In this document: positions 1,801 to 1,897 of the stretch, piece after piece
How positions within the stretch are numbered: the stretch's first letter is position 1
Layout of the letters: each line of letters opens with the position of its first letter
DNA from: a virus
Taxonomy: Duplodnaviria; Heunggongvirae; Uroviricota; Caudoviricetes
DNA: 5,117 nucleotides
IMG/VR virus record: IMGVR_UViG_2684622618_000022
Strand: one strand, 5' to 3'
Made by a program: the position numbers and the translations under genes
The notes under the pieces: generated by a model
Seen by the model: the letters and a program-made list of their open reading frames with translations, nothing else
The model's database searches: none
What the model was told of the DNA's origin: nothing

Positions 1801-1897
1801 GTGGTAATTATCTTTAGTAATCACTAAACAAGCAAATACTTGACTTAATGGTTTATTAAACACTAAACTCGCAAAAAAACACTAAACCGAGGAAGGT
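1801..1897. promoter_or_regulatory. Divergent promoter/operator region (OR analogue): leftward promoter for the repressor operon, rightward promoter for the cro-like operon, repeated operator-like motifs
   Basis: Minus strand: -35 TTGCTT (complement of 1830-1835), 17-bp spacer, -10 GATAAT (complement of 1807-1812), then 6 nt to the ATG. Plus strand: -35 TTGACT (1840-1845), 18-bp spacer, -10 TAAACT (1864-1869), SD GAGGAAGG (1889-1896). CACTAAAC occurs at 1822-1829, 1861-1868 and 1880-1887; palindrome TTTAGTaatcACTAAA at 1813-1828 and a near-copy TTTATTaaacACTAAA at 1852-1867. Confidence 0.5.

What the first reader, a model, noticed from the sequence alone, without database searches (positions are those of the whole stretch)
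1801..1897. Compact divergent switch region with palindromic operators and a probably leaderless repressor mRNA
Back-to-back -35 elements (1830-1835 minus, 1840-1845 plus) drive the repressor and cro-like operons. The repressor ATG lies 6 nt after its -10 with no room for an SD, as for lambda cI from pRM. Three CACTAAAC copies and the palindrome TTTAGT-N4-ACTAAA overlap the promoter elements; they are plausible binding sites for the repressor and/or the Cro-like protein.
Basis: seen in the sequence. Interest (0 to 1): 0.5.

Follow-up and report, generated by a model that had tools for sequence, protein, structure and literature searches.

The report
Known CP-933P prophage genetic switch
This 97-base stretch is the already published on/off switch of the cryptic prophage CP-933P of E. 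coli O157:H7, where the repressor PaaR2 and the Cro-like protein YdaS compete for shared binding sites and the repressor message has no leader.

Summary
Window 1801-1897 is exactly the 97-bp paaR2-ydaS intergenic region of E. coli O157:H7 prophage CP-933P/Sp12. It is 100% identical to many O157:H7 chromosomes, and all 24 primers checked from Jurenas et al. 2021 (mBio, PMC8630535) map exactly. The paper's EMSA fragment is 1801-1897. That paper mapped both transcription starts by 5' RACE. It proved leaderless translation of paaR2 by N-terminal sequencing (MQKKE) and mass spectrometry. It showed by EMSA and DNase I footprinting that PaaR2 and YdaS bind overlapping sites over both promoters, and it demonstrated bistability.

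I confirm these elements:
- PRM: TTGCTT-N17-GATAAT-N6-ATG (1835-1798, minus strand).
- PR: TTGACT-N18-TAAACT (1840-1869).
- Three exact CACTAAAC copies (0.14 expected by chance).
- Two 18-bp pseudo-palindromes (1812-1829 and 1851-1868).

I compared 31 related loci. The promoter geometry, the 4-bp gap between the -35 hexamers and the two palindromes are conserved. So is the -10/5-7-nt/ATG arrangement, in 22 of 32 loci counting the window. The third CACTAAAC copy and the same-strand orientation of the copies are specific to CP-933P. Novelty: already known. Interest: low.

The parts
1429..1800 (-). paaR2, the CI-analogous repressor (123 aa, MQKKEIRR...). It is the first gene of the paaR2-paaA2-parE2 operon.
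   Evidence: ORF. Primers F-1-PaaR2 and R-PaaR2 map to 1773-1800 and 1429-1446. PDB 7nkv/8c3k/8c3l hold its N-terminal domain. phrog_5736 transcriptional regulator. N-terminus MQKKE sequenced (PMC8630535).
1798..1800 (-). paaR2 start codon, which is also the published +1 of PRM933P (leaderless mRNA).
   Evidence: Geometry -10 + 6 nt + ATG. 5' RACE, N-terminal sequencing and MS in PMC8630535. The start codon is invariant in alignment A3.
1807..1812 (-). PRM933P -10 hexamer GATAAT.
   Evidence: The equivalent hexamer (CAAAAT, CACAAT or GATAAT) sits at a fixed 17-nt spacing in 30 of 32 loci.
1830..1835 (-). PRM933P -35 hexamer TTGCTT (3 of 6 to consensus; a weak promoter).
   Evidence: TTGCTT is nearly invariant across relatives. 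The paper reports PRM weaker than PR and activated by low PaaR2.
1840..1845 (+). PR933P -35 hexamer TTGACT, 4 bp from the PRM -35.
   Evidence: The 4-bp gap is invariant in all 29 loci where both promoters were found.
1864..1869 (+). PR933P -10 hexamer TAAACT.
   Evidence: TAAACT is conserved in relatives. The same hexamer pair recurs at PL, matching the paper's statement that PL and PR have identical -35 and -10 elements.
1812..1829 (.). IR1, CTTTAGTAATCACTAAAC: an 18-bp pseudo-palindrome lying over the PRM spacer and the edge of its -10. It holds the first CACTAAAC. By position it is the analogue of lambda OR3 (inference).
   Evidence: Best match in the window to the palindromic consensus, 16 of 18. 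Perfect TTTAGT-N4-ACTAAA. Outer half-sites conserved in relatives. The paper says IR1 overlaps PRM933P.
1831..1849 (.). Approximate position of the degenerate IR2, spanning both -35 hexamers. Its centre is near -40 relative to the PRM start. It is the candidate site for PaaR2 activation of PRM, like lambda OR2 (inference).
   Evidence: The paper describes four equally spaced 18-bp repeats, with IR2 and IR4 lacking left-half conservation. The block AAGCAAATACTTGAC is the most conserved part of alignment A3. Exact borders could not be checked because the figures are not held.
1851..1868 (.). IR3, GTTTATTAAACACTAAAC: an 18-bp pseudo-palindrome over the PR spacer and -10. It holds the second CACTAAAC. 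By position it is the analogue of lambda OR1 (inference).
   Evidence: Second-best match in the window, 15 of 18. One mismatch to the palindrome. The paper says IR3 overlaps PR933P. Conserved in relatives but with the inner 8 bp in the opposite orientation.
1870..1887 (.). IR4, CGCAAAAAAACACTAAAC: only the right half-site (the third CACTAAAC, 1880-1887) is present. It lies in the PR leader at about +4 to +11.
   Evidence: and the paper's description of IR4. It scores 10 of 18 to the consensus by my own count; the listing stops above it. It is not conserved in the 20 other loci of alignment A3.
1889..1896 (+). Shine-Dalgarno sequence GAGGAAGG of ydaS.
   Evidence: Sequence. GGAG-like motifs sit at the same place in most relatives.
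1898..2200 (+). ydaS, the Cro-analogous HTH regulator (100 aa).
   Evidence: Pfam PF15943 at 46.5 bits (cut-off 30) and HTH_3. PDB 8c7k and 8co2, 'antirepressor protein Cro'. phrog_35. EMSA, footprint and repression data in PMC8630535.
2197..2589 (+). ydaT, the CII-analogous activator. It is interrupted in the window by a 50-N mask at 2300-2349.
   Evidence: annotation. phrog_163 'CII-like transcriptional activator'. PMC9986795.
2190..2207 (.). YdaT high-affinity box OM, TTGATT-N6-AATCAA, at the ydaS/ydaT junction. It controls PRE933P, the alternative leftward promoter for paaR2.
   Evidence: Single exact match, 0.00 expected. Footprint and ITC in PMC9986795. PRE fragment primers map to 2106-2225.
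825..865 (-). PL933P (TTGACT 852-847, N16, TAAACT 830-825) with OL-type pseudo-palindromes at 826-843 and 848-865. This is the second operator cluster bound by PaaR2 and YdaS.
   Evidence: PL fragment primers map to 819-936. Repression by both proteins is reported in PMC8630535.
937..1408 (-). paaA2 (1217-1408) and parE2 (937-1215), the toxin-antitoxin cargo transcribed from PRM and PRE downstream of paaR2.
   Evidence: Pfam PaaA2 PF21217 and ParE_toxin PF05016. Annotation.

Best explanation

Two promoters sit back to back, with their -35 hexamers 4 bp apart. The weak leftward PRM933P starts transcription on the A of the paaR2 AUG. The repressor PaaR2 is therefore translated from a leaderless mRNA together with the paaA2-parE2 toxin-antitoxin pair. 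The stronger rightward PR933P makes the ydaS-ydaT (Cro-like and CII-like) mRNA, which has a leader of about 20 nt and a normal Shine-Dalgarno sequence.

PaaR2 and YdaS bind overlapping operators built from GTTTAGTAA-type half-sites. One full pseudo-palindrome lies over the core of each promoter (IR1 on PRM, IR3 on PR). A degenerate site spans the two -35 hexamers, and a half-site lies in the PR leader.

PaaR2 represses PR most strongly, activates PRM at low dose and represses it at high dose. YdaS preferentially shuts PRM. Their competition gives two heritable expression states.

Shown experimentally by others: the transcription starts, leaderless translation, binding and footprints, repression and activation in vivo, and bistability. 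Inferred: which repeat each protein contacts, and my positional mapping of IR3, IR2 and IR1 onto lambda OR1, OR2 and OR3.
For: Identity of the sequence:
- Window 900-2290 is 100% identical to many O157:H7 chromosomes. The gene order is parE2-paaA2-paaR2 / ydaS-ydaT-O-dnaC-like.
- All 24 primers checked from Table S3 of PMC8630535 map exactly. EMSA primers FL2/FL1 map to 1801-1822 and 1878-1897, and the footprint probe spans 1751-1939.

Published experiments on that sequence:
- 5' RACE, N-terminal sequence MQKKE, MS, EMSA, DNase I footprints, gfp fusions and two-colour single-cell bistability.

Sequence anatomy confirmed here:
-.

Phylogenetic footprint:
- In 30 of 32 PaaR2-family loci (window included) I find TTGCTT/TTGATT-N17-(C/G)A(A/C/T)AAT.
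- In 22 of them the ATG follows 5-7 nt after the -10, and the sequence of that short gap varies.
- The 4-bp gap between the -35 hexamers is invariant, and PR is TTGAC.-N16-18-TAAACT.
- Both 18-bp pseudo-palindromes keep their outer half-sites.
- A YdaS homologue is divergently encoded in 24 of 29 scanned loci.

Structures of the PaaR2 N-terminal domain and of YdaS are in the PDB.
Against: Nothing contradicts it. The limits are these.
- The paper's figures and the body of Table S1 are not held as text. I could not compare the published +1 of PR or the boxed hexamers base by base.
- The authors state that the precise PaaR2 and YdaS recognition sequences are undetermined.
- The binding concentrations reported were high (above 1 uM).
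- The bistability was measured on a plasmid reporter, not on the chromosomal prophage.
- The PRM -35 is only 3 of 6 to consensus and failed a generic promoter scan.
Confidence: 0.96

Rival explanations
1. The functional recognition units are the three same-strand CACTAAAC (AAACACTAAAC) direct repeats, read in an oriented way by oligomeric PaaR2 (an octamer in solution), and not the palindromic sites read by symmetric dimers.
For: There are three exact 8-mers, extending to 11-mers at 1858-1868 and 1877-1887. [quoted passage not shown]
Against: In relatives the IR3 element is usually GTTTAGTGTTTAATAAAC. That is the exact reverse complement of the CP-933P copy, so there CACTAAAC lies on the opposite strand from the IR1 copy. 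The third copy is absent from the 20 other aligned loci. What is conserved is the outer GTTTAG...CTAAAC dyad. The four best matches in the window to the palindromic consensus are exactly the two OR and two OL sites.
Confidence: 0.12
2. The palindromes are a conventional type II toxin-antitoxin operator, bound by the PaaA2-ParE2 complex to autoregulate the operon. The resemblance to a phage switch would be incidental.
For: The operon does carry a ParE-family toxin and its antitoxin. RefSeq annotates the neighbours as TA components, including 'toxin YdaT family protein'.
Against: PaaA2 matches only the short PaaA2 stability-determinant family and no DNA-binding domain. The paper reports that PaaA2 lacks any DNA-binding motif, and that regulation is by PaaR2, YdaS and YdaT. 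The same switch sequence occurs in 29 loci of other genera that lack any PaaA2 or ParE2 homologue.
Confidence: 0.02
3. The repressor is translated from a leadered mRNA starting at the upstream in-frame GTG at 1863 (the 144-aa ORF). The -10/ATG proximity would be coincidental.
For: The mechanical ORF list gives a 144-aa ORF at 1429-1863. RefSeq annotates the homologue in E. coli GZ2408P with such an extended start, 143 aa. The PHROG profile carries about 30 extra N-terminal positions.
Against: N-terminal sequencing gave MQKKE, and the intact mass fits the 123-aa protein plus tag expressed from its own promoter. The extension would run through both promoters. The ATG and the 5-7-nt distance from the -10 are conserved in 22 loci, while the would-be extension is not conserved as protein.
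Confidence: 0.01

Closest known systems
PRM933P/PR933P intergenic operator of prophage CP-933P (Sp12), E. coli O157:H7 (Jurenas et al. 2021, mBio, PMC8630535)
   Same: It is the same sequence. The intergenic length of 97 bp, the N-terminus MQKKE, the half-site consensus GTTTAGTAA and the PL promoter with identical hexamers all fit. All 24 primers checked match exactly, including the EMSA pair that delimits 1801-1897.
   Different: Nothing within the finding differs. The window differs from one O157:H7 reference (PV15-279) at four bases outside the region and by one indel further downstream.
Bacteriophage lambda OR region (PRM/PR, OR1-OR3, CI and Cro; leaderless cI mRNA)
   Same: From established knowledge of lambda and from the paper: divergent back-to-back promoters about 76-82 bp apart; a weak maintenance promoter that is autoactivated at low repressor and repressed at high repressor; a leaderless repressor mRNA; repressor and Cro competing for the same operators with opposite preference; a second operator cluster at PL; a CII-type activator with a PRE promoter; a repressor that forms octamers.
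   Different: PaaR2 (123 aa) has no detectable Pfam family and no S24 autocleavage domain, so it is not SOS-inducible. There are four 18-bp repeats at spacings of about 19-20 bp, rather than three 17-bp operators. YdaS and YdaT are unrelated in sequence to Cro and CII. A toxin-antitoxin pair replaces rexAB.
Rac prophage racR-ydaS-ydaT immunity region of E. coli K-12 (PMC11879457, PMC9638921)
   Same: The gene order is the same: repressor / Cro-like YdaS, CII-like YdaT, replication genes. The YdaT box is nearly identical (ATGATT-N6-AATCAA versus TTGATT-N6-AATCAA), with cross-binding shown.
   Different: CP-933P YdaS and YdaT are only 26% and about 30% identical to the Rac proteins. RacR is a different repressor. 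In Rac, YdaT also binds the racR-ydaS intergenic region, whereas in CP-933P it does not. No leaderless repressor mRNA is mentioned for Rac in that paper (0 occurrences of 'leaderless').

Membership tests
CP-933P/Sp12 paaR2-ydaS switch (published locus) | Sequence identity with the experimentally studied fragments. | tested here: met
   24 of 24 primers checked from Table S3 match exactly. The EMSA fragment is 1801-1897, the footprint probe 1751-1939, and the promoter fusions 1800-1873. Window 900-2290 is 100% identical to O157:H7 chromosomes.
CP-933P/Sp12 paaR2-ydaS switch (published locus) | 97-bp intergenic region; PaaR2 N-terminus MQKKE; 18-bp repeats with half-site GTTTAGTAA; PL with the same -35 and -10 as PR. 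| tested here: met
   1801-1897 is 97 bp. The ORF from 1800 begins MQKKE. IR1 and IR3 score 16/18 and 15/18 to the consensus. TTGACT...TAAACT occurs at both 1840-1869 and 852-825.
Leaderless mRNA of the lambda cI type | The transcription start coincides with the A of the start codon. | not testable with these tools
   Published TAP-5' RACE (5 clones) places +1 at the paaR2 translation start, backed by N-terminal sequencing and MS. Here only the geometry can be checked.
Leaderless mRNA of the lambda cI type | The -10 hexamer ends 5-8 nt before the ATG, and there is no Shine-Dalgarno sequence. | tested here: met
   GATAAT + TACCAC + ATG. No GGAG, GAGG or AGGA in the preceding 25 nt. The 5-7-nt geometry is conserved in 22 of 32 family loci, with a variable gap sequence.
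Lambda CI / LexA-type autocleavable repressors | C-terminal S24 peptidase (autocleavage) domain. | tested here: not met
   The 123-aa protein has no Pfam hit at E <= 0.01. The paper states that it lacks the peptidase motif and does not respond to mitomycin C. It is a functional analogue of CI, not a member of that family.
Lambda CI / LexA-type autocleavable repressors | N-terminal helix-turn-helix DNA-binding domain. | tested here: inconclusive
   No Pfam HTH family is detected. The solved N-terminal domain (7nkv, 8c3k, 8c3l) is deposited as 'Phage repressor protein CI', and the paper reports an HHpred HTH prediction. I did not inspect the fold.
YdaS / Cro-superfamily HTH regulators | Match to Pfam YdaS_toxin (PF15943) or HTH_3 above the gathering score. 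| tested here: met
   PF15943 at 46.5 bits (cut-off 30) and HTH_3 at 29.8 bits (cut-off 23). P22_Cro reaches only 16.2 bits against a cut-off of 30.2, so that family is not met.
Canonical type II toxin-antitoxin autoregulatory operator | The antitoxin carries a DNA-binding domain that binds the operon's own operator. | tested here: not met
   PaaA2 matches only PF21217 (a 33-position stability determinant) and no DNA-binding family. The paper reports the same. The switch exists without the TA pair in 29 loci of other genera.

The most novel reading that the evidence does not exclude
The literature held here describes this switch only for CP-933P. My comparison suggests it is a portable, strongly conserved immunity cassette.
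- The cassette comprises a PaaR2-type repressor, a YdaS-type Cro, back-to-back promoters with an invariant 4-bp gap between the -35 hexamers, two GTTTAG...CTAAAC pseudo-palindromes, and mostly a leaderless repressor gene.
- It is spread through prophage regions of Enterobacterales. It is also found in contigs assigned to Burkholderiales (Massilia, Mycoavidus, Glomeribacter).
- The operator half-sites are so similar that prophages in different genera might be homo-immune.
- In CP-933P the inner 8 bp of the PR operator is inverted and an extra half-site was added. This would be a natural experiment arguing that orientation-independent (dimer/palindrome) recognition is what matters.

None of this was tested experimentally. 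Some host assignments (for example Martelella) may be contamination.
Probability: 0.5. Interest if true: 0.25.

Novelty: already known. Interest (0 to 1): 0.07.

Why it matters
The locus is a compact lambda-like bistable switch built from proteins unrelated in sequence to CI, Cro and CII. It has one of the few proven leaderless mRNAs in E. coli, and it controls a ParE toxin-antitoxin pair that may stabilise a prophage in a major pathogen. That significance has already been established in print, so the finding adds nothing new. The modest added value here is comparative:
- It shows which parts of the 97 bp are under constraint across genera: both promoters, the -10-to-ATG distance and the outer half-sites of two palindromes.
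- It shows which parts are lineage-specific: the third CACTAAAC copy and the orientation of the PR operator core.
- This bears on the question the authors left open, namely which repeats are actually recognised.
- It also flags that leaderless repressor genes of this family tend to be annotated with false N-terminal extensions.

Tried and rejected
- The Rfam scan of the whole window found no RNA family at gathering thresholds.
- The generic sigma-70 scan did not list PRM, because its -35 is only 3 of 6 to consensus. I did not take this as evidence against PRM, given the RACE data and the conservation.
- Searching the literature for the PDB codes 7NKV, 8C3K, 8C3L, 8C7K and 8CO2 returned only irrelevant chemistry papers. 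No open paper on PaaR2-DNA or YdaS-DNA structures was found, and a PaaR2+YdaS search gave only six papers, none defining the exact operators.
- Table S1 (promoter hexamers) and the supplementary figures are held without content. A base-by-base comparison with the published promoter boxes and the PR +1 was therefore impossible.
- I considered a fifth operator-like site at 1912-1929 inside ydaS (12 of 18 to consensus, part of a 21-nt inverted repeat with 1844-1864). I set it aside. It is out of register with the other repeats. Its bases change at synonymous positions in the closest heteroimmune relative, and it is absent in the other genera.
- I considered the 144-aa GTG-initiated ORF and the TA-autoregulation reading, and rejected both (see the rival explanations).
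- The phage collection holds only one close copy of the switch (phage Evi), so phage records gave no useful diversity. The genome-contig scan did.

Full report
**What the window is.** The ORF map and a megablast against complete E. coli genomes show that window 900-2290 is 100% identical to many E. coli O157:H7 chromosomes. The RefSeq annotation of one of them places it in a lambdoid prophage. The left arm carries excisionase, exonuclease, dicB and ydfC. The centre carries a RelE/ParE toxin, a RelB-type antitoxin, a 'hypothetical protein' and, divergently, a 'transcriptional regulator' and a 'toxin YdaT family protein'. Replication genes follow. Pfam confirms ParE_toxin for 937-1215(-), PaaA2 for 1217-1408(-) and YdaS_toxin/HTH_3 for 1898-2200(+). 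The 123-aa protein at 1429-1800(-) has no family. This is the paaR2-paaA2-parE2 / ydaS-ydaT immunity region of prophage CP-933P (Sp12).

**The finding is the published locus.** Jurenas et al. [quoted passage not shown] The span 1801-1897 is 97 bp. I mapped 24 of their oligonucleotides (Table S3) onto the window, and all match exactly.
- The footprint probe is 1751-1939.
- The PRM and PR gfp fusions carry 1800-1873.

The paper's other identifiers also fit: N-terminus MQKKE, half-site consensus GTTTAGTAA, and a PL promoter with the same hexamers as PR.

**Check of the observation.**
- PR is TTGACT (1840-1845), an 18-nt spacer, then TAAACT (1864-1869).
- PRM on the minus strand is TTGCTT (1835-1830), a 17-nt spacer, GATAAT (1812-1807), TACCAC, then ATG (1800-1798).
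- There is no Shine-Dalgarno motif before the paaR2 ATG. ydaS has GAGGAAGG.
- CACTAAAC occurs three times exactly, all inside the region (1822, 1861, 1880). The whole window would give 0.14 by chance, and no shuffle reached three.
- TTTAGT-N4-ACTAAA is perfect at 1813-1828 and has one mismatch at 1852-1867. The only other near-matches in 5.1 kb are two sites at 827 and 849, which lie in the published PL/OL region.
- Scoring every 18-mer against the palindromic consensus GTTTAGTAATTACTAAAC gives the same four sites as the top four: 1812 (16/18), 1851 (15/18), 848 and 826 (14/18 each).

So two of the three 8-mers are the right halves of full pseudo-palindromes. The third (1880-1887) is an isolated half-site, which corresponds to the paper's IR4 'lacking conservation on the left half-site'.

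**What has been shown experimentally (by others).**
- TAP-dependent 5' RACE on EDL933 RNA (5 clones per end) placed both starts at the predicted promoters. The PRM933P start coincides with the paaR2 translation start.
- Leaderless translation was confirmed by expression from its own promoter, Edman sequencing (MQKKE) and intact mass.
- PaaR2 and YdaS each give several shifted complexes with the 97-bp fragment. PaaR2 protects about 78 bp. YdaS protects 27+32 bp, binding PRM first and PR at higher concentration.
- In vivo both proteins repress both promoters and PL. Low PaaR2 activates PRM about 4-fold while repressing PR.
- YdaT activates a PRE-like promoter at the ydaS/ydaT junction. Its box, TTGATT-N6-AATCAA (PMC9986795), is at 2190-2207 in the window.
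- A two-colour reporter shows two heritable states that depend on paaR2 and ydaS.
- Structures of the PaaR2 N-terminal domain and of YdaS are deposited.

**Mechanism, with what is shown and what is inferred.**
- Shown: divergent promoters, a leaderless repressor mRNA, competitive binding, cross-repression, autoactivation at low repressor, and bistability.
- Inferred by me from positions:
  - IR3 (1851-1868) covers the PR spacer and -10, and acts like lambda OR1.
  - The degenerate IR2 (about 1831-1849) spans both -35 hexamers. It is centred near -40 of PRM, the position from which lambda CI at OR2 activates PRM.
  - IR1 (1812-1829) fills the PRM spacer and acts like OR3.
  - IR4 lies at about +4 to +11 of the PR transcript.

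The authors state that the exact recognition sequences are undetermined, and that both inverted and direct repeats might be used.

**Comparison across relatives (new here).** The 401-nt switch region occurs in 613 of 5426 complete E. coli genomes, and 581 copies are at least 99% identical. An apparently complete 40-kb phage genome (Evi) carries it at 98.4% identity, together with paaA2 and parE2. I retrieved two diverged E. coli loci and 29 loci from a scan of one genome per species. The latter come from Photorhabdus, Xenorhabdus, Arsenophonus, Yersinia, Erwinia, Raoultella, Enterobacter and Morganella, and from contigs labelled Massilia, Mycoavidus, Glomeribacter and others.

- **Promoter geometry.** In 30 of 32 loci (window included) the repressor gene is preceded by TTGCTT/TTGATT-N17-(C/G)A(A/C/T)AAT. 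In 22 loci the ATG follows 5-7 nt after the -10, usually 6, and the sequence of that gap varies freely. This is what is expected if only the distance matters, as for a leaderless start.
- **Exceptions.** Eight Photorhabdus/Xenorhabdus loci have the same promoter but a gap of 54-85 nt before the ATG. Two loci (L018, L033) gave no match.
- **Spacing.** The gap between the two -35 hexamers is 4 bp in every locus where both promoters were found. PR is TTGAC.-N16-18-TAAACT.
- **Conserved and variable blocks.** In the 21-sequence alignment the conserved blocks are the start codon, the PRM -10, the outer halves of IR1, AAGCAAATACTTGAC (both -35 hexamers), and the outer halves of IR3 with the PR -10. 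The centres of the palindromes vary. So does everything downstream of the PR -10, including the third CACTAAAC, up to the Shine-Dalgarno sequence.
- **Operator orientation.** The common IR3 in relatives, GTTTAGTGTTTAATAAAC (exact in six loci), is the exact reverse complement of the CP-933P IR3, GTTTATTAAACACTAAAC. The inner 8 bp is therefore flipped in CP-933P, and the three same-strand CACTAAAC copies are a peculiarity of this lineage. This favours recognition of the GTTTAG...CTAAAC dyad over oriented direct repeats, but it is an inference.
- **Neighbouring genes.** A YdaS homologue is divergently encoded in 24 of the 29 scanned loci. PaaA2 and ParE2 homologues occur only in the E. coli loci. 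This agrees with the authors' idea that the toxin-antitoxin pair was inserted into a pre-existing immunity region.

**Comparison with known systems.** The region works like lambda OR but is not built from lambda-family parts. PaaR2 lacks an S24 domain and any Pfam family, and it is not SOS-responsive. YdaS reaches the YdaS/HTH_3 thresholds but not that of P22_Cro. It differs from the Rac racR-ydaS region in repressor identity and in lacking YdaT sites between the divergent genes. It is not a canonical toxin-antitoxin operator, because PaaA2 has no DNA-binding domain.

**Limits.** Figures and Table S1 of the paper are not held. The published PR +1 and the footprint borders could not be compared base by base. 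The related loci are not independent samples: several are near-identical, and L030 and L031 are duplicates in one genome. Some host assignments of draft contigs may be wrong.

**Verdict.** The comparative points above are modest extensions, not discoveries.

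Noticed in passing
window 1851-1868, compared with L021-L024, L026 and L029: The PR operator of CP-933P (GTTTATTAAACACTAAAC) is the exact reverse complement of the form common in relatives (GTTTAGTGTTTAATAAAC). Its inner 8 bp is inverted in this lineage, while the closest heteroimmune E. coli relative (L003) keeps the family orientation.
   Followed up: partly
L006-L012 and L019 (Photorhabdus and Xenorhabdus), upstream of position 1501: These loci keep the conserved PRM-like promoter and operators, but 54-85 nt of unrelated sequence separates the -10 from the repressor ATG. An in-frame stop lies just upstream and there is no clear Shine-Dalgarno motif. This is a leadered variant of an otherwise leaderless design, or a second promoter lies closer to the ATG.
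   Followed up: no
L004 1281-1712 (E. coli GZ2408P), and phrog_5736: RefSeq starts the PaaR2 homologue 72 nt upstream (143 aa), running through the promoters, although the conserved -10 + 6 nt + ATG is at 1640. The PHROG profile also has about 30 extra N-terminal positions. Leaderless repressor genes of this family seem to be routinely over-extended. RefSeq also still labels PaaR2 'hypothetical protein' and YdaT 'toxin'.
   Followed up: partly
window 1909-1929 and 1844-1864: A 21-nt inverted repeat (86% complementary) joins the PR -35/IR3 region to codons 5-11 of ydaS. GTTTATTAAA recurs at 1912-1921 (12 of 18 to the operator consensus). It is not conserved in relatives and is out of register with the other repeats, so it is probably chance.
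   Followed up: partly
window 825-865: This is the published PL933P promoter (TTGACT-N16-TAAACT, minus strand) with two OL-type pseudo-palindromes 22 bp apart. Position 865 (C) differs from strain PV15-279 (T). In the window it completes the CTAAAC half-site.
   Followed up: partly
window 2300-2349: The run of 50 N inside ydaT stands for 83 nt in the matching O157:H7 genome. The mask is not length-preserving, so coordinates downstream are shifted by 33 nt relative to the real sequence.
   Followed up: yes
window 306-347: The ECs_2282-family zinc-binding gene (66 aa in strain PV15-279) has a premature TAA stop at codon 14 in the window, caused by a G-to-T difference at position 345.
   Followed up: partly
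window about 4458-4464: An A-run is one base shorter than in PV15-279 (7 A versus 8 A). This splits the DUF1627 gene into two ORFs (4347-4526 and 4448-5116). It is either a frameshift or a homopolymer sequencing error.
   Followed up: partly
L002 (Escherichia phage Evi, LR597642.1) 2510-4192: A 40-kb phage genome record carries the same immunity region (98.4% identical), including paaA2 and an unannotated parE2 (100% aa). Only two substitutions fall within the aligned 1770-1930 stretch around the switch, and none is in a half-site. The switch is therefore not confined to cryptic prophages.
   Followed up: partly
L006-L034 versus L003: PaaA2 and ParE2 homologues follow the repressor only in the E. 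coli loci. The PaaR2/YdaS switch in other genera lacks them, which is consistent with a late insertion of the toxin-antitoxin pair.
   Followed up: partly
L015 (Morganella psychrotolerans) about 1491-1510: The repressor homologue is out of frame after codon 3 because of a 7-A run where 6 A would keep the frame. It is a pseudogene or a homopolymer error. With the correction, the -10/6-nt/ATG geometry holds.
   Followed up: no
window 1790-1798 and 1871-1879: A T7 run (codons 2-4 of paaR2, giving an A-rich 5' end on the leaderless mRNA) and an A7 run between IR3 and IR4 form a perfect 9-nt inverted repeat flanking the switch. They could be bending tracts or simply coding bias. I did not examine this.
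   Followed up: no
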